From a virus: DNA of 64,000 nucleotides. Positions 1 through 55,576 of the stretch are shown in pieces (the stretch's first letter is position 1; every line of letters begins with the position of its first letter). Position numbers and translations under genes: made by a program. The stretch spans positions 1-64,000 of the IMG/VR virus record IMGVR_UViG_3300044994_000386, one strand, 5' to 3'. The notes under the pieces are model-generated. The model saw nothing but the letters and a program-made list of their open reading frames with translations. It was not told where the DNA came from and did not search any database.

Positions 1-66
1 TATACCATATTCCCGGCAAATTTGGTCAATTTGATTAAATTTAGAAGATTCTAGTAAATATTTCAT
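1..66 (-). CDS. LRR-array paralog, N-terminal part only (runs off left edge)
   Basis: ATG at 66 gives MKYLLESSKFNQIDQICREYGI, the same N-cap as the other array members. Confidence 0.85.
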   Translation of the reverse strand, partial: MKYLLESSKFNQIDQICREYGI

Positions 67-96
67 AAACGTATATATTAATTTTTAGAGTATATA

Positions 97-1245
97 TTAG
101 ATATCCCCCATCATTTCCCCGAATCTAAACTCATCTAGGGTTCCGTTTTTTCTCCAAATTGAATAATCTTCTTGATTTTTAATAATTTCGTTAATCTTAG
201 CAATATTATCTAAAATTAGTTGGGGGAGTGGATTATTATGACAGTCGAAATCACCACCCACTTCTCTTGGAGCTCCCATAAGTGAAGTTAATTGACTATT
301 ACTACAATAGAAATTACCACCGACATATCTCGGGGCTCCTTCTAATGAAGTTAATAGATTATTGGAACAGGAGAAATCACCACCGACTTCCCCAGGAGCT
401 CCCTCCAGTGAAGTTAATTGATTATATTGACAGTAGAAATCACCGGGCACTTCTCTCGGAGCCTCCTCCAGTGAAGTTAATTGATTGTTGTCACAGTAAA
501 AATTGGCACCGACTTCTCTAGGAGCTCCCTCTAGTGAAGTTAATTGATTATTATGACAGGAGAAATCACCGGGGACTTCCCTCGGAGCTCCCTCCAGTGT
601 AGTTAATTTATTATAATGACAGTAGAAATTGCCGCCGACTTCCCTCGGAGCTCCCTCTAGTGAAGTTAATTGATTATTATAGCAATAGAAATTATCACCG
701 ACTTCCCTCGGAGATCCCTCTAATGAAGTTAGTTGATTACCACTACAGGAAAAATCACCACCGACTTCCCTCGGAGCTCCCCACAATGAAGTTAATTGAT
801 TATAACGACAGTAAAAACTACCACCAATTTCTATCGGAGATCCCCTTAATGATGTTAATTGATTATCATCACAGTAGAAATGACCATTAACTTCTCTCGG
901 AGCCCCCATCAGTGAAGTTAATTGATTATCACTGCATTCGAAAACACCACCGACTTCCCCCGGAGCCCCCTCCAGTGAAATCAATTGATTGCTACCACAA
1001 TTGAAATCACCACCAACTTTCCACGGAGCCCCCTCCAATGAATTTAATTGATTGCGATGACAGTAGAAATTGCCACTTACTATACCAAACCTAAGGGGTA
1101 ATTTTGATAATCCCCTATCACTTAAATCTACATCACCATCTACATCAATAGATCCATCCCCATTTAGAGTATAGTCCCTTATACCATATTGCTGGCAAAT
1201 CTGATCGATTTTTTTAAATATCGAGGATTCTAGTAGGTATTTCAT
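97..1245 (-). CDS. LRR protein, 13 variable modules
   Basis: 382 aa; N-cap MKYLLESS..DGSIDVDGDVDL, 21-aa repeats, C-cap NPLP..EDYSIWR..DEFRF. Confidence 0.9.
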   Translation of the reverse strand: MKYLLESSIFKKIDQICQQYGIRDYTLNGDGSIDVDGDVDLSDRGLSKLPLRFGIVSGNFYCHRNQLNSLEGAPWKVGGDFNCGSNQLISLEGAPGEVGGVFECSDNQLTSLMGAPREVNGHFYCDDNQLTSLRGSPIEIGGSFYCRYNQLTSLWGAPREVGGDFSCSGNQLTSLEGSPREVGDNFYCYNNQLTSLEGAPREVGGNFYCHYNKLTTLEGAPREVPGDFSCHNNQLTSLEGAPREVGANFYCDNNQLTSLEEAPREVPGDFYCQYNQLTSLEGAPGEVGGDFSCSNNLLTSLEGAPRYVGGNFYCSNSQLTSLMGAPREVGGDFDCHNNPLPQLILDNIAKINEIIKNQEDYSIWRKNGTLDEFRFGEMMGDI

Positions 1246-1256
1246 TAAGTTATATA

Positions 1257-1901
1257 TTAAATATCCCGCATCATTTCCCTAAATCTAAACTCATCTATGG
1301 TTCCGTCCCTTCTCCAGATTGAATAATCTTCTTGATTTTTAATAATTTCCTTAATCTTAGCCATATTATCTAAAATTAGTTTAGGTAGTGGATTATTACT
1401 ACAGTAGAAGCCACCGCCCAATTTTCTCGGAGCTCCTACTAGTGAAGTTAATTGATTACCATAGCAGTAGAAATTGACACCGACTTCCTCCGGAGCTCCC
1501 CGGAGGGAGGTTAATCGATTATTACTACAGTGAAAATTGGCACCCACTTCTCTCGGAGCTCCCACCAGTGAAGTTAATTTATTATTATGACAATAGAAAT
1601 CACCACCCACTTCTTCCGGAGATCCTTCTAATGAAATTAATTGGTTACAATAACAATAGAAATTACCACCTACTTTTTTAGGAGCTCCTTTTAGTGTGTT
1701 CAATTTGTTATGACTACAATAGAATCCACCACTTACTATACCGAACTCCAACGGTAATTCTAATAATTCCCTATCAGTTAAATTTACATCTCCATCTACA
1801 TCAATAGATCCATCCCCATTTACAGTATATTTTTTTATATCAAATTTCTTGCAAATCCGGTCAATTTGGTTAAATTTGGAGGATTCTAGTAAATATTTCA
1901 T
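1257..1901 (-). CDS. LRR protein, 5 modules
   Basis: 214 aa, same caps and repeat. Confidence 0.9.
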   Translation of the reverse strand: MKYLLESSKFNQIDRICKKFDIKKYTVNGDGSIDVDGDVNLTDRELLELPLEFGIVSGGFYCSHNKLNTLKGAPKKVGGNFYCYCNQLISLEGSPEEVGGDFYCHNNKLTSLVGAPREVGANFHCSNNRLTSLRGAPEEVGVNFYCYGNQLTSLVGAPRKLGGGFYCSNNPLPKLILDNMAKIKEIIKNQEDYSIWRRDGTIDEFRFREMMRDI

Positions 1902-1925
1902 AAAGGTATAATTTTAGAGTATATA

Positions 1926-3011
1926 TTAAATCTCCCGCATCATTTCCCTAAATCTAAATTCGTCTAGGGTTCCATCCCTTCTCCAGATTGAATAATCTTC
2001 TTGATTTTTAATAATTTCCTTAATCTTAGACATATTATCTAAAATTAGTTTAGGAAGGGGATTATTATGACAATAAAAACTGCCACCGATTTCTCTAGGA
2101 GCACCCTTTAATGAAGTTAATTGATTATCATTACAATAGAAGTCATAAGTGACTTCTATTGGAGCTCCCACCAATGAAGTTAGTTGATTATTATCACAGT
2201 AAAAACTACCACCGATTTCTCTCGGAGCTCCCTCTAGTGAAGTTAATTGATTATTATCACAGTGGAAACTTTCACCGACTTCCATCGGAGCTCCTTCTAA
2301 TGAATTTAATTCATTATTACTACATTCGAAAACACCATTTACTTCTCTCAGAGCTCCCATCAGTGAAGTTAATTTATTAAAATTGCAGTAGAAACTGGCA
2401 CCTACTTGTTTTGGTGCCCCTTTTAGCGTGATCAATTGATTATTTTGACAGTAGAAACTGACACCGACTTGCATCGGACCTCCCTCTAATGAAGTTAATT
2501 GATTATTACTACATACGAAATCACCACCGACTTGCATCGGACCTCCCTCTAATGAAGTTAATCGATTATCACTACAGTAGAAATGACCATTAACTTCTCT
2601 CGGAGCTCCCATCAGTGAAGTTAATTGATTATTACTACATACGAAAACACCACCGACTTCCCCCGGACCTCCTTCTAATGAAGTTAATCGATTATTACGG
2701 CAGTAGAAATTGGCACCTACTTGCCTTGGGGCTCCTTTTAGCGTGTTCAATTGATTATTTTGACAGTAGAAACTGATACCGACTTCCCTCGGAGCTCCCT
2801 CTAACGAAGTTAATTGATTATTACCACAGTAAAAATCACCACTTACTATACCAAACCTAAGGGGTAATTTTGATAATCCCCTATTATTTAAATACACATC
2901 ACCATCTACATTTATAGACCCATCAGTATTTAGAGTATAGTCCGTTATACCATATTGCTGACAAATCTGATCAATTTCGTTAAATTTAGAGGATTCTAGT
3001 AGGTATTTCAT
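1926..3011 (-). CDS. LRR protein, 12 modules
   Basis: 361 aa, same caps and repeat. Confidence 0.9.
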   Translation of the reverse strand: MKYLLESSKFNEIDQICQQYGITDYTLNTDGSINVDGDVYLNNRGLSKLPLRFGIVSGDFYCGNNQLTSLEGAPREVGISFYCQNNQLNTLKGAPRQVGANFYCRNNRLTSLEGGPGEVGGVFVCSNNQLTSLMGAPREVNGHFYCSDNRLTSLEGGPMQVGGDFVCSNNQLTSLEGGPMQVGVSFYCQNNQLITLKGAPKQVGASFYCNFNKLTSLMGALREVNGVFECSNNELNSLEGAPMEVGESFHCDNNQLTSLEGAPREIGGSFYCDNNQLTSLVGAPIEVTYDFYCNDNQLTSLKGAPREIGGSFYCHNNPLPKLILDNMSKIKEIIKNQEDYSIWRRDGTLDEFRFREMMREI

Positions 3012-3035
3012 TTAAATATAATTTTAGAGTATATA

Positions 3036-3554
3036 TTAAATCTCCCGCATCATTTCCCAAAATCTAAATTCATCTAAGGTTCCATCCCTTCTCCAGATTG
3101 AATAATCTTCTTGATTTTTAATAATTTCCTCAATTATACCTAAATTATCTAAAATTAGTTGCGGTAGTGGATTATTACTACAATAGAAGCCACCACCCAA
3201 TTTTCTCGGAGCTCCTACCAGTGAAGTTAATTGATTACCATAGCAGTAGAAATTGACACCGACTTCCTCCGGAGCTCCCCGGAGGGAGGTTAATCGATTA
3301 TTACTACAGTAGAAATTGGCACCCACTTCTCTCGGAGCTCCCCGGAGGGAAGTTAATTGATTATTATGACAATAAAAATCAACAATTACTATACCGAACT
3401 TAAGGGGCAATTTTGATAGTCCTCTGTTGGTTAAATCCACATCACCATCTACATCGATAGATCCATCCCCATTTAGAGTATAGTTTTCTATACCATATTG
3501 CTGGCAAATCTGATGAATTTCGTTAAATTTAGAGGATTCTAGTAAATATTTCAT
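3036..3554 (-). CDS. LRR protein, 3 modules
   Basis: 172 aa, same caps and repeat. Confidence 0.9.
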   Translation of the reverse strand: MKYLLESSKFNEIHQICQQYGIENYTLNGDGSIDVDGDVDLTNRGLSKLPLKFGIVIVDFYCHNNQLTSLRGAPREVGANFYCSNNRLTSLRGAPEEVGVNFYCYGNQLTSLVGAPRKLGGGFYCSNNPLPQLILDNLGIIEEIIKNQEDYSIWRRDGTLDEFRFWEMMREI

Positions 3555-3579
3555 TTACATATTAAATTTAGAGTATATA

Positions 3580-4054
3580 TTAAATATCCTGCATCATTTC
3601 CCTAAATCTAAATTCATCTAAGGTTCCATCCATTCTCCAGATTGAATAATCTTCTTGATGATTTCCTGAATTATACCTAAATTATCTAAAATTAGTTGCG
3701 GCAGTGGATTATTAATACAGTAGAAGCCACCGCCCAATTTTCTTGGAGCTCCTAACAGTGAAGTTAATTGATTGTAATATCAGTAGAAATTGACACCGAC
3801 TTCCTCCGGAGCTCCCTCTAGTGAAGTTAGTTGATTATCTTGGCAATAGAAATTACCACTTACCATACCAAACTTAAGGGACAATTTCGATAATCCCCTA
3901 TTATATAAATCTACATCACCACTCACATCTATAGATCCGTCAGGATTTAGAGTATACTTTTTTATACCAGTTTTCCAGTTCAATCTCAGTTTCTATTTCC
4001 GGCAAATCTGATCGATTTTTTTTTAAATATCGAGTATTCTAGTATGTATTTCAT
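3580..4054 (-). pseudogene. Degraded LRR paralog
   Basis: Starts MKYILEYSIF; A9 run (A7 in the 97..1245 copy) shifts frame; short foreign insert near 3968-4000; TGA at 3780-3782; deletion in C-cap. Confidence 0.85.
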
Positions 4055-4065
4055 TAGTGTATATA

Positions 4066-5088
4066 TTAAAATTCCGACATCATTTCCCGGAATCTAAATT
4101 CGTCTATGGTTCCATCCCTTCTCCAGATTGAATAATCTTCTTGATTCTTGATGATATATTTAATCACATATAGATTATCTAAAATTAATTTAGGTAGTGG
4201 ATTATTATAGCAGTAGAAATTACCACCCACTTCTGTTGGGGCACCACACAATGAGGTTAATTTATTATAAGTGCAAAAGAAATCACCACCGACTTCTCTA
4301 GGAGCTCCCTCTAATGAAGTTAATTTATTACGATTACAGTAGAAATCACCACCCACTTCTCTCGGAGCTCCCTGGAGTGAAGTTAATTTATTATTACTAC
4401 ATTCAAAGGTGGCACCTACTTTTTCAGGAGCTCCCTCCAGCGAAATTAATTGATTATCATTACAGAGGAAATCAGCACCCACTTCTCTCGGAGCTCCGTC
4501 CAGTGAAGTTAATTGATTATAATAACAGTAGAAATCACCACCCACTTCTCTCGGAGCTCCCTGGAGTGAAGTTAATTTATTATAACTACAGTAGAAATCA
4601 CCGGGGACTTCTCTCGGAGCACCCTCCAATGAAGTTAGTTGATTATTATCACAGTAAAAACTACCACCGACTTCTCTCGGAGCTCCCCGGAGGGAAGTTA
4701 ATTGATTATAAATACAGGAGAAATTATCACCCACTTCCCGAGGAGCTCCCTCCAGTGAAATTAATTGATTATTATAACAGTAGAAATTGGCACCGACTTC
4801 CCTCGGAGCTCCCCGGAGGGAAGTTAATTGGTTATTACCACAGTAGAAATTGGCACCCACTTCCATCGGACTTCCCTCCAGTGAAGTTAATTGATTATTA
4901 TAGCAATAAAAGCTGCCACTTACTATACCAAATCTAACCGGTAATTCTGATAGACTTTTGTAGGCTAAATCTACATCACCATCCACATCGATGGATCCAT
5001 CCCCATTTAGAGTATAGTTTTTTATACCATATTGCTGGCAAATCTGATCAATTTCGTTAAATTTAGAGGATTCTAGTAGGTATTTCAT
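4066..5088 (-). CDS. LRR protein, 11 modules
   Basis: 340 aa, same caps and repeat. Confidence 0.9.
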   Translation of the reverse strand: MKYLLESSKFNEIDQICQQYGIKNYTLNGDGSIDVDGDVDLAYKSLSELPVRFGIVSGSFYCYNNQLTSLEGSPMEVGANFYCGNNQLTSLRGAPREVGANFYCYNNQLISLEGAPREVGDNFSCIYNQLTSLRGAPREVGGSFYCDNNQLTSLEGAPREVPGDFYCSYNKLTSLQGAPREVGGDFYCYYNQLTSLDGAPREVGADFLCNDNQLISLEGAPEKVGATFECSNNKLTSLQGAPREVGGDFYCNRNKLTSLEGAPREVGGDFFCTYNKLTSLCGAPTEVGGNFYCYNNPLPKLILDNLYVIKYIIKNQEDYSIWRRDGTIDEFRFREMMSEF

Positions 5089-5112
5089 TTAAGTATAATT
5101 TTAGAGTATATA

Positions 5113-5883
5113 TTAAATTTCCCGCATCATTTCCCTAAATCTAAACTTATCTAGTGTTCCATCCCTTCTCCAGATTGAATAATCTTCTTGATTTTTGATA
5201 ATTTCCTCAATTATACCTAAATTATATAAAATTAGTTGCGGCAGTGGATTATTACTACAGTAGAAGCCACCACCCAATTTTCTCGGAGCTCCCCTCAATG
5301 AAGTTAATTGATTACCATAGCAGTAGAAATTGGCACCGACTTTCTCCGGAGCTCCCCGGAGGGAGGTTAATCGATTATTACTACAGTAGAAATTGGCACC
5401 CACTTCTCTCGGAGCTCCATCTAATGAAGTTAGTTGATTATTATAGCAATAGAAACTACCACCAACTTCCTTCGGAGCTCCCTCTAATGAAGTTAGCCGA
5501 TTATATTCACAATAGAAGCTACCACCGACTTCTACCGGAGCTCCATCTAATGAAGTTAGTTGATTATTATAACAGTAGAAATCACCGGGTACTTCTCTCG
5601 GAGCCCCTTTTAATGAAGTTAATTGGTTATTATAACAGTGGAAATTGGCACCGACTTCACTCGGAGCTCCCCGGAGGGAAATTAATCGATTATTATGACA
5701 ATAAAAATCACCACTTACTATACCGAACTTAAGGGGTAATTCTGATAATCCCCTATTGATTAAATCCACATCACCATCCACATCAATAGATCCATCTCCA
5801 TTTAGAGTATAGTTTTCTATGTCATATTGCTGACAAATCCGATCAATTTGGTTAAATTTGGAGGATTCTAGTAAATATTTCAT
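5113..5883 (-). CDS. LRR protein, 7 modules
   Basis: 256 aa, same caps and repeat. Confidence 0.9.
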   Translation of the reverse strand: MKYLLESSKFNQIDRICQQYDIENYTLNGDGSIDVDGDVDLINRGLSELPLKFGIVSGDFYCHNNRLISLRGAPSEVGANFHCYNNQLTSLKGAPREVPGDFYCYNNQLTSLDGAPVEVGGSFYCEYNRLTSLEGAPKEVGGSFYCYNNQLTSLDGAPREVGANFYCSNNRLTSLRGAPEKVGANFYCYGNQLTSLRGAPRKLGGGFYCSNNPLPQLILYNLGIIEEIIKNQEDYSIWRRDGTLDKFRFREMMREI

Positions 5884-5908
5884 TTACATATTAAATTTAG
5901 AGTATATA

Positions 5909-6805
5909 TTAAATCTCCCGCATCATTTCCCAAAATCTAAACTCATCTAAGGTTCCATCCCTTCTCCAGATTGAATAATCTTCTTGATACTTGATGATAT
6001 GTTTAATAATATCTAGATTATCTAAAATTAGTTGGGGGAGTGGATTATTAAAACAGTAGAAATCACCACCGATTTCTCTCGGAGCTCCCTCCAGTGAAGT
6101 TAATTGATTATTACTACATACGAAAACACCACCGACTTGCATCGGACCTCCCTCTAATGAAGTTAATTGATTACTACTGCAGTGGAAATTAGCACCTACT
6201 TCTCTTGGGGCTCCTTCCAGTGAAGTTAATTGATTACCATAGCAGTAGAAATTGGCACCGACTTTCTCCGGAGCTCCCCGGAGGGAAGTTAATTGATTAT
6301 TATGGCAGTAGAAATTGGCACCGACTTCTCTCGGACCCCCTTCTAATGAAGTTAAATAATTATTATAGCAATAGAAACTACCACCAACTTCCTTCGGAGC
6401 TACCTCTAATGAAGTTAGCCGATTATATTCACAATAGAAGCTACCACTGACTTCTACCGGAGCTCCCTCTAATGAAGTTAGTTGATTATTATAACAATAG
6501 AAACTACCACCAACTTCCTTCGGAGCCCCTTTTAATGAAGTTAGTTTATTATTGTTGCAGTAGAAATCACCGCGGACTTCTCTCTGAGCTCCCCGGAGGG
6601 AAGTTAATCGATTATTATGACAATAAAAGCTGCCACTTACTATACCAAACTTAAGGGGTAATTCTGATAATCCCATATTGATTAAATCCACATCACCATC
6701 TACATCAATAGACCCATCTCCATTTAGAGTATATTTTTCTATACCATATTGCTGGCAAATCTGATCAATTTGATTAAATTTAGAGGATTCTAGTAGGTAT
6801 TTCAT
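5909..6805 (-). CDS. LRR protein, 9 modules
   Basis: 298 aa, same caps and repeat. Confidence 0.9.
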   Translation of the reverse strand: MKYLLESSKFNQIDQICQQYGIEKYTLNGDGSIDVDGDVDLINMGLSELPLKFGIVSGSFYCHNNRLTSLRGAQREVRGDFYCNNNKLTSLKGAPKEVGGSFYCYNNQLTSLEGAPVEVSGSFYCEYNRLTSLEVAPKEVGGSFYCYNNYLTSLEGGPREVGANFYCHNNQLTSLRGAPEKVGANFYCYGNQLTSLEGAPREVGANFHCSSNQLTSLEGGPMQVGGVFVCSNNQLTSLEGAPREIGGDFYCFNNPLPQLILDNLDIIKHIIKYQEDYSIWRRDGTLDEFRFWEMMREI

Positions 6806-6829
6806 TTAAGTATAATTTTAGACTATATA

Positions 6830-7915
6830 TTAAATATCCCTCATCAATTCACTAAATCTAAATTCATCTAAGGTTCCGTCCCTTCTCCAAATTGAATAAT
6901 CTTCTTGATACTTGATAATTTCCTTAATCTTAGACATATTATCTAAAATTAATCGGGGGAGTGGATTATTAAAACAGTAGAAATCACCACCGATTTCTCT
7001 CGGAGCTCCCTCCAGTGAAGTTAATTGATTATTACTACATACGAAAACACCACCGACTTGCATTGGACCTCCCTCTAATGAAGTTAATTGATTATTATAA
7101 CAGTAGAAATTGGCACCGACTTCTATCGGAGACCCTTCTAATGAAGTTAATTTATTATCATTACAGTATAAATCACTACCGATTTCCCTCGGGGCTCCCC
7201 TCAATGAAGTTAATTGATTATTACCACAGTAAAAATTACCACCCACTTTTTTCGGAGCTCCATCTAATGAAGTTAATTGATTATTATAGCAATAGAAACT
7301 ACCACCAACTTCCTTCGGAGCTCCCTCTAATAAAGTTAGCTGATTATATTCACAATAGAAGCTACCACCGACTTCTACCGGAGCTCCATCTAATGAAGTT
7401 AGTTGATTATTATAACAGTAGAAATCACCGGGCACTTCTCTCGGGGCCCCTTTTAATGAAGTTAATTGGTTATTATAACAGTGGAAATTGGCACCGACTT
7501 CACTCGGAGCTCCCTCCAATGAAGTTAGCTGATTATATTCACAATAGAAGCTACCACCGACTTCTACCGGAGCTCCATCTAATGAAGTTAGTTGATTATT
7601 ATAACAATATAAACCACCACCAACTTCCTTCGGAGCCCCTTTTAATGAGCTTAATTGGTTATTATAACAGTGGAAATTGGCACCGACTTCACTCGGAGCT
7701 CCCCGGAGGGAAGTTAATCGATTATTATGACAATAAAAGTTGCCACTTACTATACCAAATCTAAGGGGTAATTCTGATAGACTTTTGTAGGCTAAATCTA
7801 CATCACCATCCACATCGATAGATCCATCCCCATTTAAAGTATAGTCCCTTATACCATATTGCTGGCAAATCTGATCAATTTCCTTAAATTTGGAAGATTC
7901 TAGTAAGTATTTCAT
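6830..7915 (-). CDS. LRR protein, 12 modules (start corrected to MKYLLESS)
   Basis: 361 aa from ATG at 7915; the 12-aa extension in the ORF track overlaps the upstream cassette. Confidence 0.9.
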   Translation of the reverse strand: MKYLLESSKFKEIDQICQQYGIRDYTLNGDGSIDVDGDVDLAYKSLSELPLRFGIVSGNFYCHNNRLTSLRGAPSEVGANFHCYNNQLSSLKGAPKEVGGGLYCYNNQLTSLDGAPVEVGGSFYCEYNQLTSLEGAPSEVGANFHCYNNQLTSLKGAPREVPGDFYCYNNQLTSLDGAPVEVGGSFYCEYNQLTLLEGAPKEVGGSFYCYNNQLTSLDGAPKKVGGNFYCGNNQLTSLRGAPREIGSDLYCNDNKLTSLEGSPIEVGANFYCYNNQLTSLEGGPMQVGGVFVCSNNQLTSLEGAPREIGGDFYCFNNPLPRLILDNMSKIKEIIKYQEDYSIWRRDGTLDEFRFSELMRDI

Positions 7916-7926
7916 TAGTGTATATA

Positions 7927-8040
7927 TTAAATATCCCGCATCATTTCCCAAAATCTAAACTCATCTAGGGTTCCATCCCTTCTCCAGATTGAATAATCTT
8001 CAATTTGGTTAAATTTGGAGGATTTTATTAGATGTTTCAT
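7927..8040 (-). CDS. Cap-only mini-paralog (37 aa) with no LRR modules
   Basis: Manual translation MKHLIKSSKFNQI-EDYSIWRRDGTLDEFRFWEMMRDI*, an in-frame fusion of N-cap start and C-cap end. Confidence 0.7.
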   Translation of the reverse strand: MKHLIKSSKFNQIEDYSIWRRDGTLDEFRFWEMMRDI

Positions 8041-8069
8041 TAGGATATATATTAAATTTAGAGTATATA

Positions 8070-8714
8070 TTAAATATCCCGCATCAATTCACTAAATCTA
8101 AATTCATCTAGTGTTCCATCTTTTCTCCAGATTGAATAGTCTTTTTGATACTTGATAATATGTTTAATCATATCCATATTATCTAAAATTAATCGGGGGA
8201 GTGGATTAATATAGCAACGGAAATCACCACCGACTTCTCGCGGAGCTCCACGTAATGAAGTTAATTGATTATCAATACAGTTGAAATCACCACCTACTTT
8301 TCGCGGAGCTCCCTCCAATGATGTTAATTGATTATAATAACAGTAGAAACTAGTACCTACTTCCCTTGGAGCTCCTGATAATGAAATCAATTGATTATTA
8401 TTGCAGTAGAAACCGGCACCCACTTCCCTTGGAGCTCCTTCTAGATTAGTCAATTGATTACCATAGCAGTAGAAATTACCACCTACTTCTATAGGAGCTC
8501 CCTTCAGTGTAGTTAATTGATTACGATGACAGTAGAAATTAGCACTTACTATACCAAACTTAAGTGGTAATTCTGATAGACCTTGATAAGACAAATCCAC
8601 ATCACCATCTACATCAATAGATCCATCCCCATTTACAGTATATTTTTTTATATCAAATTTCTTGCAAATCTGATCAATTTGGTTAAATTTAGAGGATTCT
8701 AGTAGGTATTTCAT
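8070..8714 (-). CDS. LRR protein, 5 modules
   Basis: 214 aa, same caps and repeat. Confidence 0.9.
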   Translation of the reverse strand: MKYLLESSKFNQIDQICKKFDIKKYTVNGDGSIDVDGDVDLSYQGLSELPLKFGIVSANFYCHRNQLTTLKGAPIEVGGNFYCYGNQLTNLEGAPREVGAGFYCNNNQLISLSGAPREVGTSFYCYYNQLTSLEGAPRKVGGDFNCIDNQLTSLRGAPREVGGDFRCYINPLPRLILDNMDMIKHIIKYQKDYSIWRKDGTLDEFRFSELMRDI

Positions 8715-8739
8715 TTACATATTAAATTTAGAGTATATA

Positions 8740-9699
8740 TTAAATATCCTGCATCATTTCCCTAAATCTAAACTCATCTAGGGTTCCATCACTTCTCCAG
8801 ATTGAATAATCTTCTTGATTCTTAATGATGTGTTTAATCATAGTCAAATTATCAAAAATTAGTTCAGGAAGTGGATTACCATAGCAGTAGAAGTCACCAC
8901 CAACTTCTCTCGGAGCACCCTTTAATGAAGTTAATTGATTATCATTACAATAGAAGTCATAAGTGACTTCTATTGGAGCTCCCTCTAATGAAGTTAGTTG
9001 ATTATTATTACAGTAAAAACTACCACCGATTTCTCTCGGAGCACCCTCCAATGAAGTTAGCTGATTATTATCACAGTAAAAACTAACACCGATTTCTTTC
9101 GGAGCTCCCCGCAATGAAGTTAGTTGATTATTACTGCAGTGGAAATTGTCACCCACTTCTCTCGGAGCTCCCTCTAGTGAAGTTAATTGATTACTACTAC
9201 AGTGGAAATTACCACCTACTTCTCTTGGGTCTCCTTCCAGTGAAGTTAATTGATTATCATAACAGTAGAAATCGGTACCGACTTCTCTTGGTGATCCCTT
9301 TAATGAAAATAATTGATTACTAATACAAGAGAAACCACCACCCACTTCTTTTGGAGCTCCCTGCAGTGAAGTTAATTTGTTATTACTACAGTAGAAATCA
9401 CCACCCACTTCTTCCGGAGATCCTTCTAATGAAATTAATTGGTTACAATAACAATAGAAATTACCACCTACTTTTTTAGGAGCTCCTTTTAGTGTGGTCA
9501 ATTTGTTATGACTACAATAGAATCCACCACTTACTATACAGAACTCCAACGGTAATTCTAATAATTCCCTATCAGTTAAATTTACATCACCATCTACATC
9601 AATAGATCCATCCACATTTAGAGTATATTTTTCTATACCATATTGCTGGCAAATCTGATGAATTTTGTTAAATTTAGAGGATTCTAGTAAATATTTCAT
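8740..9699 (-). CDS. LRR protein, 10 modules
   Basis: 319 aa, same caps and repeat. Confidence 0.9.
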   Translation of the reverse strand: MKYLLESSKFNKIHQICQQYGIEKYTLNVDGSIDVDGDVNLTDRELLELPLEFCIVSGGFYCSHNKLTTLKGAPKKVGGNFYCYCNQLISLEGSPEEVGGDFYCSNNKLTSLQGAPKEVGGGFSCISNQLFSLKGSPREVGTDFYCYDNQLTSLEGDPREVGGNFHCSSNQLTSLEGAPREVGDNFHCSNNQLTSLRGAPKEIGVSFYCDNNQLTSLEGAPREIGGSFYCNNNQLTSLEGAPIEVTYDFYCNDNQLTSLKGAPREVGGDFYCYGNPLPELIFDNLTMIKHIIKNQEDYSIWRSDGTLDEFRFREMMQDI

Positions 9700-9724
9700 T
9701 TACATATTAAATTTAGAGTATATA

Positions 9725-10684
9725 TTAAATATCCCGCATCATTTCCCTAAATCTAAACTCATCTAGGGTTCCGTCGCTTCTCCAGATTGAATAATCTTCT
9801 TGATTTTTAATGATGTGTTTAATCATAGTCAAATTATCAAAAATTAGTTGAGGAAGTGGATTATCATAGCAGTAGAAGTTACCACCAACTTCTCTCGGAG
9901 CTCCCTCTAGTGAAGTTAATTTATTATCATAACAGTAGAAATTACCACCCACTTCTCTCGGAGCACCCCTCAATGAAGTTAATTGGTTATTATAGCAGTA
10001 GAAGCCACCACTGACTTCCTCCGGAGCCCCTCTCAATGAAGTTAATTTATTATTATGACAGTAGAAATGACCACCCACTTCTATCGGACCTCCCTCCAGT
10101 GAAGTTAATTGATTATAACCACAGTGGAAACTACTACCGACTACCTCTGGAGCTCCCCTCAATGAAGTTAATCGATTATAACAACAATAGAAAACACCAC
10201 CTACTTCTCTAGGAGCTCCCTCCAGTGTAGTTAATTGATTATTATTACAGTAGAAATTACCACCTACTTGTCTTGGAGCTCCCCTTAATGATGTTAATTG
10301 ATTATCATCACAGTAGAAACTACCACCAACTTCTTTCGGAGCCCCCTCCAGCGAAGTTAATTGATTATTACTACAAAAAAAGCCATCACCGACTTCCTCC
10401 GGAGCTCCTTCCAGTGAAATCAATTGATTGCTACCACAGTTGAAATCACCACCGACTTTTCTCGGTGAACATTCTAGTGAAGTTAATTGGTTACCATAGC
10501 AGCGGAAATCACCACTTACTATACCGAACTTAAGGGGTAATTCTGATAATCCCTTATTGGTTAAATTTACATCACCATCTACATCGATAGATCCATCCCC
10601 ATTTACAGTATAGTTTTTTATACCAAATTCCTTACAAATCTGGTCAATTTGGTTAAATATGGAGGATTCTAGTAGGTATTTCAT
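9725..10684 (-). CDS. LRR protein, 10 modules
   Basis: 319 aa, same caps and repeat. Confidence 0.9.
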   Translation of the reverse strand: MKYLLESSIFNQIDQICKEFGIKNYTVNGDGSIDVDGDVNLTNKGLSELPLKFGIVSGDFRCYGNQLTSLECSPRKVGGDFNCGSNQLISLEGAPEEVGDGFFCSNNQLTSLEGAPKEVGGSFYCDDNQLTSLRGAPRQVGGNFYCNNNQLTTLEGAPREVGGVFYCCYNRLTSLRGAPEVVGSSFHCGYNQLTSLEGGPIEVGGHFYCHNNKLTSLRGAPEEVSGGFYCYNNQLTSLRGAPREVGGNFYCYDNKLTSLEGAPREVGGNFYCYDNPLPQLIFDNLTMIKHIIKNQEDYSIWRSDGTLDEFRFREMMRDI

Positions 10685-10713: not shown

Positions 10714-10985
10714 TTAAATATCCCGCATCAATTCTACAAATCTAAATCTAAACTCATCTAGGGTTCCATCCTTTCTCCAGATTGAATAATCTTCCTGATT
10801 TTTGATAATTTGTTTAATCATATACAAATTATCTAAAATTAGTTTAAGCAAGGGATTATCATAGCAACGGAAACCACAACAATCTCTTTTGGAGTTTCCT
10901 TTAATTAAGTTAATTTATTAAAATGACATAAGAAATCACCACCGACTTCTCTCGGAGCTCCCCTTAATGAAGTTAATTGATTATG
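10714..10985 (-). pseudogene. 5'-truncated LRR paralog remnant (about 2 modules plus C-cap)
   Basis: Repeat and C-cap DNA (gattgaataatcttc, ggagctcccc) with indels; no N-cap. Confidence 0.8.
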
Positions 10986-10993
10986 TCTCGTCA

Positions 10994-11395
10994 AAATGGA
11001 TAAAAGGTAGAACTAAAAATAAAAAATTTGGCGGTTATAATTTATCCGGTAAGGTTTGTTATTTTAATAAGTTGTTAAATAAAGAAAAATATTTTGAAAA
11101 CAGTGATATAATACCTGACGGGTAGATAAAGGGTAAATTGAAAAAAAAAAGACTTTGTTTTTATAATCCTAAATTAAATATAGAAAAATTATTTACAGAG
11201 GATTCACCAGAATTTAGATCTATTCGAGGTAGGTTACCTAAATTACCTTTTATTGAGGAGATTAAAGACATAAGTGAGTTTATAAGAATTTTTAGAAGTG
11301 ATGTGGATGAGGAATCCTTGATGTGGCATCGTGACCGTGAAGATGAAGCCACACATCAAATGAATCTTGAGATAAAAATTAAAAAATTATTTTAA
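10994..11395 (+). pseudogene. Remnant: homing-endonuclease-type WIKG repeats fused to an internally deleted WHRDRED (cupin-like) phage protein
   Basis: Frame reads KWIKGR..IPDG*IKGK..LMWHRDRED..NLEIKIKKLF; in-frame TAG where W is expected. Confidence 0.45.
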
Positions 11396-11439
11396 TATAT
11401 ACATAAAAAAATCTAAACAAATAAAATTCCATATAAAAT

Positions 11440-12192
11440 ATGAATAGAACATTAGCTGGAAAAAGAATCGAATTAATTAGAATGGAGGACCCATATACAA
11501 ACCTTAAAGAAGGTGATAAGGGTACTATTCAATTTATTGATGATATTGGACAAATTCATGTTAAATGGGATAATGGCTCGACTTTAGCTATCTCACCTGA
11601 GATCGATGAATTCAATATTATTGAAGAGTCTTTAAATAAACTGAGACATGTTAGACTATTTGAAGAGTTTATTTTAGGTTCAGATATTGGTTATATTAAT
11701 ACAAAAATGGAAGAGTTATCTGATCTAGTTGATTCAATTGATGATGAATTTATTTCTTTTGAGTGGTCACTGAATAATAATCTTTTAAATGTAACCCTGG
11801 AGATTAACCAAGAACAAATAATAATTAAATATGATATAGAAACCGGTAAATTAATTAGAAACATCAAAGGAAAACTTGATTCTGACCAATGTGATAATGT
11901 TGAAGAAGCTATGGATATTATTGAAGATTGTATTTACAATTTTTTGGGTGTTTCTGAGAGAGCAAAAACCAAAGGTGAAAAATATAAAGGTAAACACATA
12001 CCCGCTAAATATCTAACTAGTAAAAAAGATGCTATGAAAAAAGAAATTGAAGAGTTTCGCGGTAAGAAAAAATACAAAAAAGACTGGGAAGCTGATATAG
12101 ATAAAAGATCTGGTAAAAGAATTGAAACTAAAAAATCAGCCGCCACTAAAGCATATCATCGAATGTTTGAAAAAAAAAAATTAAAAATATGA
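11440..12192 (+). CDS. DUF4314-like N-terminal domain protein with basic C-terminus
   Basis: RIELIRMEDPY..GDKGTIQFIDDIGQIHVKWDNGSTLAI. Confidence 0.7.
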   Translation: MNRTLAGKRIELIRMEDPYTNLKEGDKGTIQFIDDIGQIHVKWDNGSTLAISPEIDEFNIIEESLNKLRHVRLFEEFILGSDIGYINTKMEELSDLVDSIDDEFISFEWSLNNNLLNVTLEINQEQIIIKYDIETGKLIRNIKGKLDSDQCDNVEEAMDIIEDCIYNFLGVSERAKTKGEKYKGKHIPAKYLTSKKDAMKKEIEEFRGKKKYKKDWEADIDKRSGKRIETKKSAATKAYHRMFEKKKLKI

Positions 12193-13830: not shown

Positions 13831-14976
13831 CTATTCTTTTTTGGAGTCGTAGTTTTCGTCATAGATTCTTACTATTTCATTAAATTCCTGTAGGACACCC
13901 ATTTTAATCTTTTCATCTGGATAACTTTGATTAGAAATATACTCACGAATCACATCTTTATATTCTAGTTCAATCTTTATTGATTGAGACAAATCAGAAG
14001 ATTCTTTGATGATTTCTAAAGTTGAATTAGTTTCTTCATCACTTAAATCTTTTAGTTTTTCATCTCGAATATCATCTATATAGTCAACCGAAGCAAAGTT
14101 ACCAGTCTCCAACATCAACTCCAATTTTCTTCTCAATTTACGATTACCGATAATTAAAGAATTAGAAATAAAAAGATCTATATAGTCTTTAGTAGAAACT
14201 TTGTCTAATTCTTCAATATGTTCTTCTTTAGTGATATAAAGTTTTCTAAATTTAGGTGAAATATTGTTAGGTATAAACTTCTCGGTTTCTTCTATGACAT
14301 CTAAAATGAAAATACCTTTTTGATTATTGATATCATTACGATCCATTTCATGAATAGAACCAACAAATGTAAAATTCTTATTAACTTGTTGAATATGAAT
14401 ATGTCCCGAATAAACGTGTTTATAACCTGAAAAGGCTTCTATATCAATTTTATCGTGATTTTTATGAGCTATTGAATTTAAGTGCATTTTAGCACCATTT
14501 AGATCAGAGTGACAAAAAAGATAATCACAACCTGAATATTTTTTTAAGATTTCAATTTGGTCTTTTCTTTTTTCGACCCAAGGAAGCATTAAGATAGATT
14601 TACCCATAAAATCAATCTTAGTAGGCTCTTCATAAACATTCACGTTAGGAATATACTTATAAAGTTTTACGGTATTGATATCATTAGAGCTTTTATTATA
14701 TAAATCGTGGTTGCCGATAATAACATGTACTTGACAAATTTGAGACATTCTTTCTAAAATAGACTGCGCATAGGTTAATATATTTATAGGCACTACGTTT
14801 CGATTATCAAAAAGGTCACCACAATGAACAATAATATCATTTTTAGTGAGTTCTTTTTTAAGAAGTGGAAATAAGAAATCTTCGAAGTATTCTTGAGAAA
14901 CTTTAAACCATTTATCAACTGAGTTTGGATAACCTAATCCTAAATGTGTATCACCAATAACTAAAATTTTAGACAT
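13831..14976 (-). CDS. Mre11/SbcD-like recombination nuclease (T4 gp47-like)
   Basis: GDTHLG, GDLFD, GNHD and SGHIH metallophosphoesterase motifs. Confidence 0.88.
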   Translation of the reverse strand: MSKILVIGDTHLGLGYPNSVDKWFKVSQEYFEDFLFPLLKKELTKNDIIVHCGDLFDNRNVVPINILTYAQSILERMSQICQVHVIIGNHDLYNKSSNDINTVKLYKYIPNVNVYEEPTKIDFMGKSILMLPWVEKRKDQIEILKKYSGCDYLFCHSDLNGAKMHLNSIAHKNHDKIDIEAFSGYKHVYSGHIHIQQVNKNFTFVGSIHEMDRNDINNQKGIFILDVIEETEKFIPNNISPKFRKLYITKEEHIEELDKVSTKDYIDLFISNSLIIGNRKLRRKLELMLETGNFASVDYIDDIRDEKLKDLSDEETNSTLEIIKESSDLSQSIKIELEYKDVIREYISNQSYPDEKIKMGVLQEFNEIVRIYDENYDSKKE

Positions 14977-53963: not shown

Positions 53964-53994
53964 AAAAAACCCACTAAAATTAGTGGGTTTTTTT
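53964..53994. terminator. Bidirectional intrinsic terminator
   Basis: aaaaaacccactaa-aa-ttagtgggttttttt. Confidence 0.85.
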
Positions 53995-55441
53995 ATAACT
54001 CAATTGAGTTGATTCGGTTGTATAAGGCTCGTTTGTCTTCCTCCATCATTTTCATGATGTCAAAGACTCTATCAGAGAAACCAGCTAAAGCAAATACTTT
54101 AGGCTCTGGGAATTGAAGAGTTCCATATCCTTGTAAGTCCCAAGAGTAAACATAAGGATTACAGTTGAACTTCTTCTTGTAGTCGGCAAACTGAGCAGTG
54201 GGTGTATTGTAGCCAATCCAGCCCTGCATATCTGATAAGATAATTACTCTATCATAAGATTTATTAGCCTTAATGAATATATCTTTGAAGTTAGTTCCAC
54301 CACCTGAAAAATTGAACTTACTACGGATAGTAAAAATAGAATCCATTGGATTATATTCAATGTAGCTAGCATAATTCGCAAAAGTCATAACATCACAGCT
54401 ATTAGCTTTAGCAATCATAGCACCAAATAGAGATGCAATTTCAGAAGGACGACCACTCATAGAACCAGATACGTCAATGACAACCAAAGTTTCGCCATTA
54501 AATCTTGGAACATTTACTACCGAAAAATCTAAAGCTTTATTGATGGCAACCAATACTTTACGAACTTCAGATGAAGAGCCAAGTTTTGAGACTTCTTCAT
54601 AAGCAGTCGAAAAACGGAAAGGTAGAACTTTAGATTTTCGAATCATTGATTCGTCAATTAAAAGAGTACAAGCTGCATCTACCACTGATGGTGCCTGAGA
54701 AATAATATTTCTCAAGTTTTTCAAAAGAGCAAAGTAACCAATCTTACGAGTTTGAATTAACTCAGACCATGCATCGGCTTTAAGTTGACTTAATTCTTCT
54801 TCGTTAGAAGCATTTTGACCAGCCTGAGAAAGCATAGCCTCCCAAGTATCAGTGTTTTTTAATTTACCGCTGATCAAGGCTTTCAAAGCTTCGGAATTTT
54901 TCTCGGTAGGAACCGGATGAACCAAGTTTACCACGTCAACTAATTTGAATTTTTTAGATTCACCTTTGTACTTAGCCAATTGATAAGTATCAAACTTATC
55001 GAAAGCTTTAGCAAATCCTTTTTTTAAAGAATTTGGAAATTTAGGTTTATTCTTATCGGTTTTGTAGTTAACATAGTAAGACATAATTTCAGTCATATCA
55101 TCAACACGACTAACAACCTTATTATAAAAATTTTTAGACCATTCTTGACCAGAGATATATAATGCTAATTCAGCGGCAAGTACATGAGTAATACTTCTCA
55201 TTCCGAATTCATCACGAGCAAAAATAGCAGCTTTAGCCGCAAATTTAGGATCAACTTTAGATAAGAGAGCCTTTAAATCGTCAATTGATTGGTCAGCCGA
55301 TCGGTAAAACTGGTTGTTAACAAATGATGTCAACAACAAAGAAACAAGAGACAGTTCATCAGTTTTGCGATAGGCTTCACCACCAGCAAGATTAATTGTT
55401 TTTGTTTTTGGTTTTGATTCTGTTTTGTTAAACTTTGACAT
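53993..55441 (-). CDS. Ro60/Rsr TROVE-vWA RNA-binding protein (start corrected to MSKFN)
   Basis: NLAGGEAY, FDTYQLAKY, LVHP, TWE, ALLKNLRN, LPFRF, vWA MIDAS DVSGSM, GGTNF, ILSDMQ. Confidence 0.92.
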   Translation of the reverse strand: MSKFNKTESKPKTKTINLAGGEAYRKTDELSLVSLLLTSFVNNQFYRSADQSIDDLKALLSKVDPKFAAKAAIFARDEFGMRSITHVLAAELALYISGQEWSKNFYNKVVSRVDDMTEIMSYYVNYKTDKNKPKFPNSLKKGFAKAFDKFDTYQLAKYKGESKKFKLVDVVNLVHPVPTEKNSEALKALISGKLKNTDTWEAMLSQAGQNASNEEELSQLKADAWSELIQTRKIGYFALLKNLRNIISQAPSVVDAACTLLIDESMIRKSKVLPFRFSTAYEEVSKLGSSSEVRKVLVAINKALDFSVVNVPRFNGETLVVIDVSGSMSGRPSEIASLFGAMIAKANSCDVMTFANYASYIEYNPMDSIFTIRSKFNFSGGGTNFKDIFIKANKSYDRVIILSDMQGWIGYNTPTAQFADYKKKFNCNPYVYSWDLQGYGTLQFPEPKVFALAGFSDRVFDIMKMMEEDKRALYNRINSIEL

Positions 55442-55535
55442 ACTATATAAATTTATTTTGTTTTCTATAGACAAGGACTCGTAGAAATCATTATTGGCTT
55501 TTGAATCATGCGAGTGTATAAAACTCAATCTATAC

Positions 55536-55576
55536 AAAAAAAAAATCAGAGTTACTTAAACTAAATAACTCTGATT
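55536..55576 (-). terminator. Intrinsic terminator between the Y-RNA-like elements and Ro60
   Basis: Minus strand AATCAGAGTTA-11 nt-TAACTCTGATT followed by a T run. Confidence 0.7.

What the first reader, a model, noticed from the sequence alone, without database searches (positions are those of the whole stretch)
97..10684. Paralogs are mosaics of shared multi-module blocks
Seen: 1257 shares ICKKFDIKKYTVNG with 8070 but VNLTDRELLELPLEF..KKVGGNFYCYCNQLISLEGSPEEVGGDFYC with 8740. It also shares its last two modules (EEVGVNFYCYG..RKLGGGFYCSN) with 3036. IEVTYDFYCND is shared by 1926 and 8740, GGPMQVGGVFVCSN..REIGGDFYCFN by 5909 and 6830, SEVGANFHCYN..VPGDF..VEVGGSFYCEY by 5113 and 6830, and REVNGHFYC by 97 and 1926. 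Inference: in-register recombination or gene conversion between non-adjacent genes shuffles modules combinatorially, possibly using the phage's own recombination machinery (a gp47-like nuclease lies about 3 kb away).
Basis: partly seen in the sequence, partly recalled or inferred. Interest (0 to 1): 0.8.

Follow-up and report, generated by a model that had tools for sequence, protein, structure and literature searches.

The report
Recombining LRR gene array in phage
A fragment of a giant uncultured phage from a hot-spring mat carries at least eleven back-to-back genes for small leucine-rich-repeat binding proteins that are patchworks of one another, made by ordinary homologous recombination between copies; the way of evolving is familiar, but I found no paper describing this phage protein family, and what it binds is unknown.

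Summary
Observation confirmed. All seven shared motifs are present, and they hold at DNA level. Window 97-10684 (- strand) holds 11 intact tandem paralogs. Each has a 50-aa N cap, 4-14 strictly in-register 21-aa (63-nt) LRR modules and a 38-aa C cap. There are also two pseudogenes and a 37-aa cap-only relic, and further copies cut by both contig ends.

Of 108 modules, 53 fall into 19 types shared at 92% nt identity or more, against a background near 75%. Among internal modules that is 40 such pairs versus 1.4 expected. A whole-gene duplication history is rejected (PHI p<=0.0005; gene 1257 triplet p=2e-20).

Tracts that cross gene borders point to unequal crossing-over. Single-module patches look like gene conversion.

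The predicted fold is a capped cysteine-ladder LRR solenoid (pLDDT 95.5), closest to Listeria InlJ and the IpaH/SspH LRR domains. Variation sits at the canonical concave-face positions.

Independent arrays of the family show the same mosaicism but assemble identically across samples. This is therefore evolutionary recombination, not programmed shuffling. No DGR signature was found, and a role for gp47 is untested.

This scan has already reported the same thing in ten or more other phage genomes. Function is unknown.

The parts
1..66 (-). First 22 codons (MKYLLESSKFNQIDQICREYGI) of a further family member that runs off the contig's left end
97..1245 (-). LRR paralog, 382 aa, 14 modules; mostly unique modules, with shared types at m3 and m4
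1257..1901 (-). LRR paralog, 214 aa, 6 modules. It is the clearest mosaic: 8070-like (N cap nt 0-115), then 8740-like (to m3), then 3036/5113-like (m4-m6), then a 1926-like tail
1926..3011 (-). LRR paralog, 361 aa, 13 modules; internal duplicates (m2~m7, m4~m6); m11-m12 shared with 8740.m9-m10
3036..3554 (-). LRR paralog, 172 aa, 4 modules; equals 5113 without its m2-m5. The similarity runs on into both neighbouring genes, so it is a segmental duplicate
3580..4054 (-). Pseudogene of the family, about 3 modules, with frameshifts in the N cap and tail and an in-frame stop in place of the ladder Cys
4066..5088 (-). LRR paralog, 340 aa, 12 modules; mostly unique. The single-module patch m5 matches 1926.m11 at 97%, with flanks at 76%
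5113..5883 (-). LRR paralog, 256 aa, 8 modules; a 3036-type backbone carrying a 4-module block shared with 6830.m5-m8 (5 differences in 252 nt)
5909..6805 (-). LRR paralog, 298 aa, 10 modules; shares pieces with 6830, 5113, 3036, 8740 and 1926
6830..7915 (-). LRR paralog, 361 aa from the ATG at 7915, 13 modules; internal 3-module (189-nt) tandem duplication, m2-m4 ~ m5-m7
7927..8040 (-). 37-codon cap-only ORF: the first 13 codons of the N cap fused in frame to the last 24 codons of the tail. It is a deletion relic with a microhomology junction and a diverged N terminus (MKHLIKSS)
8070..8714 (-). LRR paralog, 214 aa, 6 modules, all unique; its N cap is shared with 1257
8740..9699 (-). LRR paralog, 319 aa, 11 modules; a mosaic of 3036-, 1257-, 5909-, 1926- and 9725-like tracts. 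This is the protein that was folded
9725..10684 (-). LRR paralog, 319 aa, 11 modules; mostly unique. Its last module, tail and spacer, together with the next gene's N cap, repeat one gene further on (347 nt, 93.7%)
10714..10990 (-). 5'-truncated, frameshifted pseudogene at the upstream edge of the array
13831..14976 (-). gp47/SbcD-like recombination nuclease. It belongs to the phage's general recombination machinery and is not shown to act on the array

Best explanation
The array is a tandem multigene family of small capped leucine-rich-repeat (LRR) proteins in a fragment of a huge T4-like myovirus. It evolves by ordinary homologous recombination between copies.

Two kinds of conserved sequence let misaligned copies pair in register. 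One is the conserved segment of tail, 24-25-nt spacer and next N cap. The other is the roughly 19-nt conserved core of every 63-nt module (the NQLTSL codons).

Unequal crossing-over then duplicates or deletes whole genes, blocks of modules and chimeric gene junctions. Short conversion-like patches copy one or two modules into an otherwise unrelated paralog. Point mutations retained at the concave-face residues (module positions 9, 11, 13 and 14, also 4, 8 and 21) add further diversity. Pseudogenes and a cap-only relic show birth and death of copies.

The result is an inherited panel of binders with a fixed scaffold and differing binding faces.

Shown here: the mosaic structure, the rejection of a tree-like history, the fold, and where the variation lies.

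Inferred: which enzymes act, the selective cause, and that the proteins bind variable host molecules.
For: Anatomy: there are 11 intact genes with no indels off the 63-nt register.

Module identities are bimodal. 53 of 108 modules fall into 19 shared types that recur in different contexts, far above the shuffle expectation.

Recombination tests: PHI p<=0.0005, and triplet Fisher tests of 2e-20 and 1e-7.

Tracts crossing gene borders, for example 9930-9584 ~ 8945-8599, 5988-5635 ~ 3659-3306 and 5292-5005 ~ 3215-2928, indicate unequal crossover or segmental duplication. Single-module patches at 92-97% identity, flanked by 65-83%, look like conversion.

Exact in-register matches between unrelated modules concentrate at module nt 41-59.

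The AF2 model has pLDDT 95.5 and pTM 0.88 and shows a capped solenoid. Foldseek hits are the LRR domains of IpaH, YopM and SspH. The sequence profile hits InlJ at E 5e-26 with the Cys ladder in register.

Hypervariable codons carry 45 nonsynonymous to 2 synonymous differences in recent copies, against 46:46 elsewhere.

In related phage contigs, six other arrays show the same mosaic type-sharing. One gene-copy variant (L054/L055) and one in-register two-module variant (L057/L030) separate close relatives.

T4-type recombination genes are present here (gp47-like) and beside a related array (UvsX, RuvC).
Against: The contig comes from a metagenome assembly whose method I do not know. Exact repeats reach 109 nt, and both contig ends break inside family members. 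Some joins could therefore be wrong, and I could not check them against raw reads, because only fragmented k=31 contigs were served.

Crossing-over and gene conversion cannot be cleanly told apart from one genome.

The selection signal rests on non-independent pairs and few synonymous changes. Overall omega at the hypervariable codons among old pairs is 0.6, not above 1.

There are no expression, virion or binding data, so 'binder panel' is an inference from fold and variation pattern alone.
Confidence: 0.85

Rival explanations
1. Assembly artefact. The short-read assembler switched between near-identical paralogs at exact repeats, turning whole-gene duplicates into apparent mosaics.
For: Exact repeats of 109, 105, 91, 91 and 85 nt exist. 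Both contig ends break inside family members. Logan contigs of the source-like runs fragment to about 200 nt here and show many 'joints'.
Against: Shared tracts are 92-98% identical rather than 100%, so they are diverged copies that are both present in the assembly. No exact repeat of 40 nt or more spans the best-supported switch in 1257 (about 1541-1563). All exact repeats are shorter than a typical 150-nt read; that read length is my assumption. Swapping at the 105-nt repeat would leave the mosaic pattern unchanged. Six independent arrays from other metagenomes show the same pattern. Related arrays assemble identically in separate samples: 100% over 9-12 kb and 99.98% over 4.4 kb.
Confidence: 0.06
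2. There was no exchange between copies. Simple whole-gene duplications were followed by module loss, and selection or convergence keeps certain module types alike.
For: Some pairs do look like whole-gene duplicates that differ by a block indel, for example 3036 versus 5113.
Against: The nearest paralog switches along genes with p=2e-20. PHI is significant even in the indel-free N cap. Shared modules are 94-100% identical at synonymous sites too, while neighbouring modules are 65-83% identical. Selection on protein sequence does not explain that.
Confidence: 0.03
3. Programmed diversification: a VLR-like copy-choice assembly into an acceptor gene, a DGR, or a site-specific shuffling system acting at high frequency.
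For: The layout looks superficially like lamprey VLR cassettes. There is a cap-only ORF at 7927-8040. The variable codons are mostly NAT/NGT.
Against: Every copy is a complete gene with a start, both caps and the same upstream motif, so there are no silent cassettes. The cap-only ORF has a microhomology junction and a diverged N terminus, as a relic would. No reverse transcriptase is in the contig, although only about 15% of the genome is held. Differences between recent copies are mainly transitions, with no adenine bias. Related arrays are identical across samples.
Confidence: 0.03

Closest known systems
Listeria internalin J (InlJ, PDB 3bz5), the 21-residue 'cysteine ladder' LRR
   Same: Same 21-residue period and the same core register, (L/F)-x-C-x-x-N-x-L-T-x-L, with an invariant Cys in place of a core Leu. 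It is the best sequence match among solved structures (profile E 4.9e-26; single sequence E 1.3e-12).
   Different: There is no signal peptide, internalin N-cap domain or cell-wall anchor. The NCBIfam InlJ model scores 14-50 bits against a cut-off of 1700. The phage proteins are 172-382 aa, made only of caps and repeats, with their own conserved N and C caps.
LRR domains of type III secretion effectors (IpaH, SspH1/2, SlrP, YopM)
   Same: Best structural matches (Foldseek prob 1.0, TM about 0.5-0.6, 19-31% identity). They are short 'bacterial-type' LRRs with a helical N cap, used as target-binding modules inside another cell.
   Different: There is no NEL E3-ligase domain or any other effector domain. 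The SspH2 model scores 82 bits against a cut-off of 1243. The repeat is 21 residues and carries the Cys ladder.
Tandem LRR protein locus of Flavobacterium psychrophilum (Altae-Tran et al. 2020, PMC10392669)
   Same: Up to 19 tandem LRR genes, each with 2-14 repeats. [quoted passage not shown] It is the nearest prokaryotic parallel in architecture and mode of evolution.
   Different: That locus is bacterial, encodes putative cell-surface proteins and has a repeat of about 22 residues. The array here is encoded by a phage and has no export signal I could see. Homology between the two was not tested.
Plant NLR/R-gene clusters (e.g. RPP8, PMC6771003) and other tandem LRR families that evolve by unequal crossing-over and gene conversion
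   Same: Tandem paralogs, exchange between genes, changes in repeat number, and variation concentrated on solvent-exposed LRR residues (paper found; general knowledge).
   Different: Those are eukaryotic immune receptors with signalling domains. Here the proteins are virus-encoded and consist of LRRs only.
PeSL-mediated modular shuffling in hyperplastic regions of T4-type phages (PMC2839356, PMC4122927)
   Same: In T4-like phages, short conserved intergenic sequences serve as crossover points for gain, loss and swapping of genes. Here a conserved spacer motif, TTAATATATAC..., with its flanking caps recurs 12 times in the array.
   Different: PeSLs are promoter plus stem-loop cassettes between unrelated genes. 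No stem-loop or terminator was found in these spacers. Here the homology also lies inside the coding repeats.

Membership tests
LRR superfamily, cysteine-ladder 21-residue class (InlJ-like) | Tandem repeats carrying the conserved LxxLxLxxNxL-type segment | tested here: met
   108 modules share the core F10-x-C12-x-x-N15-x-L17-x-x-L20. C12, L17 and L20 are invariant in the 86 internal modules.
LRR superfamily, cysteine-ladder 21-residue class (InlJ-like) | 21-residue period with Cys at the third core position, in register with InlJ | tested here: met
   All spacings are exactly 21 aa. The HMMER alignment to 3bz5 puts Cys on Cys and N-x-L-T-x-L on N-x-L-T-x-L.
LRR superfamily, cysteine-ladder 21-residue class (InlJ-like) | Curved solenoid fold, one turn per repeat | tested here: met
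   AF2 gives pLDDT 95.5 and pTM 0.88. All top Foldseek hits are LRR domains with prob 1.0. This is a prediction, not an experimental structure.
LRR superfamily, cysteine-ladder 21-residue class (InlJ-like) | Pfam LRR model above its gathering score | tested here: inconclusive
   LRR_4 scores 44.6, 39.8 and 27.6 bits (cut-off 27) for 8740, 9725 and 97. It scores 19.8 and 19.4 bits for the short genes 1257 and 3036.
Internalins (Listeria) | Signal peptide, internalin N-cap, inter-repeat domain, surface anchor; NCBIfam InlJ cut-off | tested here: not met
   NF033187 scores 14-50 bits against a cut-off of 1700. The proteins end 38 aa after the last repeat.
IpaH/SspH NEL E3-ligase effectors | C-terminal NEL ubiquitin-ligase domain | tested here: not met
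   No residues remain for such a domain. NF011917 scores 82 bits against a cut-off of 1243, and the match covers the LRR part only.
Tandem multigene family evolving by unequal crossing-over and gene conversion | Same-strand tandem paralogs with conserved junctions | tested here: met
   11 intact genes lie on the - strand with spacers of 11-25 nt. The tail, spacer and N-cap junctions are 92-97% alike.
Tandem multigene family evolving by unequal crossing-over and gene conversion | Mosaic tracts, meaning the phylogeny is incongruent along the gene | tested here: met
   PHI p<=0.0005. Triplet Fisher p values are 2e-20 and 1e-7. See also the module-type map.
Tandem multigene family evolving by unequal crossing-over and gene conversion | Copy-number and repeat-number variation between close relatives | tested here: inconclusive
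   This could not be tested for this phage, because only fragmented contigs of runs were served. In related phages, L055 has one more gene than L054, and L030 has two more modules than L057 at 97.6-98.2% identity. Assembly collapse is not excluded for the latter.
Tandem multigene family evolving by unequal crossing-over and gene conversion | Birth and death: pseudogenes and relics in the array | tested here: met
   Pseudogenes at about 3580-4054 and about 10714-10990, and a cap-only ORF at 7927-8040.
Diversity-generating retroelement (DGR) | Reverse transcriptase, a template/variable repeat pair, adenine-specific changes | tested here: not met
   No RVT_1 match in the 86-kb contig, which is about 15% of the genome. 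Differences between recent copies are mostly transitions (AG 58, CT 34 of 139).
VLR-like somatic cassette assembly | One incomplete expressed gene plus silent, promoterless partial cassettes | tested here: not met
   All copies are complete genes with the same upstream motif. The cap-only ORF looks like a decayed deletion product. A cytidine deaminase was not searched for.
PeSL (promoter-early stem-loop) cassettes of T4-type phages | Conserved intergenic promoter plus stem-loop/terminator at exchange points | tested here: not met
   A conserved spacer motif is present (13 copies against 0.25 expected). No terminator-like stem-loop lies in the spacers, and the sigma-70-like hits do not exceed shuffles.

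The most novel reading that the evidence does not exclude
The arrays are a virus-encoded, inherited repertoire of intracellular binders. The LRR proteins would be made early or carried in the head and injected, and each concave face would neutralise a different variable host defence or surface-remodelling protein. On that reading huge phages keep a recombination-diversified 'counter-immune' library that mirrors the LRR repertoires hosts use in immunity. The conserved caps would dock all members to one common partner or packaging route. Nothing here tests targets, timing or packaging. The resemblance of the MKYLLES start to other N termini in this genome is weak, and no prohead protease lies in the fragment.
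Probability: 0.25. Interest if true: 0.8.

Novelty: new variant of a known kind. Interest (0 to 1): 0.5.

Why it matters
Tandem LRR families that diversify by recombination are a hallmark of host immunity (plant NLRs, lamprey VLR cassettes) and of one bacterial surface-protein locus.

Here the same architecture sits in a giant phage. The family has thousands of unnamed members: at least 7,798 homologs in the protein database, found on contigs up to 597 kb, and the nearest ESM Atlas clusters are 100% viral. Five full-text searches for phage LRR arrays found no paper describing it.

If the proteins bind host factors, they would be a large untapped set of natural binders and a marker of phage-host arms races in huge phages.

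The specific claim checked here, that recombination makes the mosaics, is mechanistically ordinary. Its value is in documenting the process cleanly and in excluding a programmed mechanism.

Tried and rejected
1. Population variants in reads. The only runs holding the stretch are hot-spring or mat metagenomes served as k=31 Logan contigs. These break into pieces of about 200 nt here. The 'joints' have sides of 21-48 nt and most likely come from family copies outside this contig. They are no test of order variants.

2. Near-identical phage records. Megablast found none.

3. DGR. No RT was found and there is no adenine bias.

4. VLR-like acceptor reading of the cap-only ORF. Rejected as a relic.

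5. Capsid-targeting leader idea, taken from earlier notes. About a dozen unrelated ORFs do start MK[YH][LI]K.F.., but the LRR genes share only MKYL and F10 with them. AF2 puts residues 2-19 in the N-cap helix. The prohead protease search was uninformative, because nothing matched in the control genomes either. This is left as an untested lead.

6. Breakpoint phase analysis. Tract ends are set by where the variable codons lie, so they say nothing about hot spots.

7. Cellular homologs. The only hits in species-representative genomes are two MAGs whose contigs carry phage genes (UvsX, RuvC-like, Dda-like). They look like phage contigs binned with cells.

9. Mapping variable residues onto model coordinates. 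Coordinates are not exposed, so the concave-face assignment rests on the InlJ register and standard LRR geometry.


Full report
WHAT IS THERE

The window is the first 64 kb of an 86,435-bp IMG/VR virus record with an estimated completeness of 15%. That implies a genome of roughly half a megabase.

The contig is a phage fragment. It carries tail sheath and tail tube, large terminase, clamp loader, DnaB-like helicase, ribonucleotide reductase, a DNA methyltransferase and an SbcD/gp47-like nuclease. By gp47, its nearest relatives among deposited phages are uncultured 634-642-kb phages, at 48-51% identity. Runs that hold the stretch are hot-spring or microbial-mat metagenomes.

On the minus strand of 97-10684 lie 11 intact paralogs, separated by spacers of 11-25 nt. 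Each has:
- a 50-aa N domain;
- 4 to 14 modules of exactly 21 aa (63 nt), with no indel anywhere;
- a 38-aa tail.

The array also holds:
- a pseudogene at about 3580-4054, with frameshifts and a stop at the ladder Cys;
- a 5'-truncated pseudogene at about 10714-10990;
- a 37-codon ORF at 7927-8040, which fuses 13 N-cap codons to 24 tail codons.

A twelfth copy starts at 66(-) and runs off the contig. Another starts at contig position 86211 on the opposite strand and runs off the other end. The family is therefore larger than the window shows, and the assembly broke inside it.

CHECK OF THE OBSERVATION

Module-to-module nucleotide identity is mostly 0.6-0.8, with a separate tail at 0.92 and above. 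Among the 86 internal modules there are 40 such pairs. Shuffling codon columns among modules gives 1.4 on average and never more than 6.

At the 92% threshold, 53 of 108 modules fall into 19 types. In the map below, dots are unique modules:
- 97: ..AI..........
- 1257: JK.FCG
- 1926: .L.A.AL...DM.
- 3036: NFCG
- 4066: ....D.......
- 5113: NHOEBFCG
- 5909: P.BEB.CQAR
- 6830: PHBEHOEB...AR
- 8070: ......
- 8740: JK...Q.DDMS
- 9725: ...I......S

The same type occurs at different positions and with different neighbours.

IS IT RECOMBINATION?

A tree-like history of whole-gene duplications with module loss is rejected on three grounds.

1. PHI test. It gives p<=0.0005 (0 of 2000 permutations) for the 5'-anchored and 3'-anchored alignments. 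It gives the same for the gap-free 150-nt N domain alone.

2. Gene 1257. Informative sites favour 8740 over 3036 by 67:6 up to module 3, and 3036 over 8740 by 54:11 afterwards (Fisher p=2e-20). Inside the N domain there is a further switch from 8070 to 8740 (p=1e-7).

3. Synonymous sites. Shared modules are alike at synonymous sites too, so selection on the protein does not explain them.

Two kinds of event can be seen.

Unequal crossing-over or segmental duplication. Several tracts run from the end of one gene, through tail and spacer, into the N domain of the next gene, and recur one or more genes away:
- 9930-9584 ~ 8945-8599 (347 nt, 93.7%);
- 5988-5635 ~ 3659-3306;
- 5292-5005 ~ 3215-2928.

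Gene 3036 equals 5113 without four modules. Gene 6830 carries an internal 189-nt, three-module tandem duplication.

Conversion-like patches. Single modules at 92-97% identity sit between neighbours at 65-83% identity. Examples are 4066.m5 with 1926.m11, 5909.m8 with 8740.m6, and 97.m4 with 9725.m4.

The substrate is plausible. Tail, spacer and N-cap junctions are 92-97% alike across units. Exact in-register matches between otherwise unrelated modules concentrate on module nt 41-59, the NQLTSL codons.

MISASSEMBLY

I cannot exclude misassembly, because raw reads were not available. I rate it as unlikely, for these reasons:
- The shared tracts are diverged copies, not identical ones.
- The longest exact repeat is 109 nt.
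- No exact repeat of 40 nt or more spans the best-supported switch in 1257.
- Six independent arrays of the family from other metagenomes show the same type-sharing.
- Related arrays assemble identically in different samples: 100% over 9-12 kb and 99.98% over 4.4 kb.

NOT A PROGRAMMED DIVERSIFIER

- All copies are complete genes behind the same spacer motif. TTAATATATAC occurs 13 times in the window against 0.25 expected: 12 in the array and one before the gene at 11440.
- No reverse transcriptase is in the fragment.
- Differences between recent copies are mainly transitions, with no adenine bias.
- The cap-only ORF has a microhomology junction and a diverged N terminus, as a decayed deletion product would.
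- Related arrays are stable between samples. In one pair of contigs the array differs at only a handful of bases while the flank diverges by several per cent.
- Rare structural variants do exist between close relatives. One is an extra gene (L055 versus L054). The other is an in-register two-module tandem duplication (L030 versus L057, 97.6-98.2% identity). An assembler collapse cannot be excluded for the second.

WHAT THE PROTEINS ARE

AlphaFold2 on the 319-aa protein of 8740, using an alignment of paralogs and homologs, gives pLDDT 95.5 and pTM 0.88. The model has an N-terminal helix (residues 2-19), one solenoid turn per module and C-terminal helices.

Foldseek finds the LRR domains of IpaH7.8, YopM, SspH1/2, SDS22 and SlrP. 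By sequence, the closest solved structure is Listeria InlJ, the 21-residue cysteine-ladder LRR (profile E 4.9e-26), in the same register.

The proteins are not internalins and not NEL effectors. They have no further domain, and the curated models score far below their cut-offs.

Variation is concentrated at module positions 4, 8, 9, 11, 13, 14 and 21. In the LRR register, positions 9, 11, 13 and 14 flank the core F and C on the concave strand. This placement rests on established LRR geometry, not on measured coordinates.

Selection signals:
- At hypervariable codons 13 and 14, pN exceeds pS (0.53 versus 0.20, and 0.34 versus 0.18).
- Between recent copies, hypervariable codons carry 45 nonsynonymous to 2 synonymous differences, against 46:46 elsewhere.
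- This is consistent with diversifying selection but does not prove it. The pairs are not independent, and omega over all hypervariable codons in old pairs is 0.6.

SPREAD AND PRIOR KNOWLEDGE

- The family has at least 7,798 homologs in the large protein database. All are unnamed, and they lie on contigs up to 597 kb.
- 140 related stretches were found in the JGI metagenome collection, many of them in tandem arrays with the same 21-aa period.
- The nearest ESM Atlas clusters are 100% viral.
- The only hits in species-representative genomes are two MAGs whose contigs carry phage genes.
- PHROG families 21719 and 7816 are of unknown function.
- Literature searches found no description of LRR arrays in phages.
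- The nearest published parallels are the tandem LRR locus of Flavobacterium psychrophilum (PMC10392669), plant NLR clusters (PMC6771003) and PeSL-mediated shuffling in T4-type phages (PMC2839356 and PMC4122927).
- This scan has already reported the same phenomenon in ten or more other phage genomes. I list those notes but did not rely on them as evidence.

VERDICT

The words 'combinatorial shuffling' overstate a process that mostly moves blocks and whole junctions and leaves half of the modules unique. The link to gp47 is untested.

The mechanism is familiar. Its setting is a huge-phage family of capped cysteine-ladder LRR proteins with unknown targets, which I could not find described in the literature.

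Noticed in passing
window 282-9323, + strand (e.g. 4314-4937, 5244-5732, 7015-7764): Long ORFs of up to 249 aa lie antisense to the LRR genes, with their own 21-aa repeat (MKLIDYY.SRN.HRLLSELP...). They most likely exist only because one antisense frame of the 63-nt repeat has no stop codon. I saw no evidence that they are genes.
   Followed up: no
window 11392-11402 (+), upstream of the ORF at 11440-12192: The only copy of the array's spacer motif TTAATATATAC outside the array lies 38 nt before a non-family gene that is transcribed divergently from the array. The motif may be a phage-specific promoter or regulatory element.
   Followed up: partly
window 1-10000 versus the rest: The array is 34-37% G+C with strongly negative GC skew, while the rest of the window is 26-33%. 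This probably reflects the Gly/Ala/Pro/Arg-rich repeat rather than foreign origin.
   Followed up: no
window 12189, 21328, 21897, 30188, 32546, 35767, 41706, 48301, 50448; contig 67378: About a dozen unrelated ORFs start with MK[YH][LI]K.F[EN].[FY]-like peptides. The LRR genes (MKYLLESSKF) share only part of this. Whether it is a packaging or processing signal or a translation-start preference is open.
   Followed up: partly
contig position 86211-86435 (+), outside the window: A further family member on the opposite strand is cut by the right end of the contig. The phage therefore has at least two arrays about 75 kb apart, in opposite orientation.
   Followed up: partly
L084 (JALOAD010000014.1, 'Ca. 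Muiribacterium halophilum' MAG) and L088 (Flavobacterium sp. MAG): These MAG contigs carry the LRR family next to UvsX-like recombinase, RuvC-like resolvase and Dda-like helicase genes. They look like phage contigs binned into bacterial MAGs. The Flavobacterium bin may be a hint to a Bacteroidota host.
   Followed up: partly
L044 versus L046 (related freshwater contigs): The LRR array is almost identical between the two contigs (5 mismatches in about 6 kb). The sequence just downstream diverges by several per cent, which marks a recombination boundary at the edge of the array.
   Followed up: partly
window 53993-55537 (-): A Ro60/TROVE-like RNA-binding protein gene (phrog_850, E 8e-45) lies in this phage fragment. 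Other first-reader notes discuss Y-RNA-like elements next to it.
   Followed up: no
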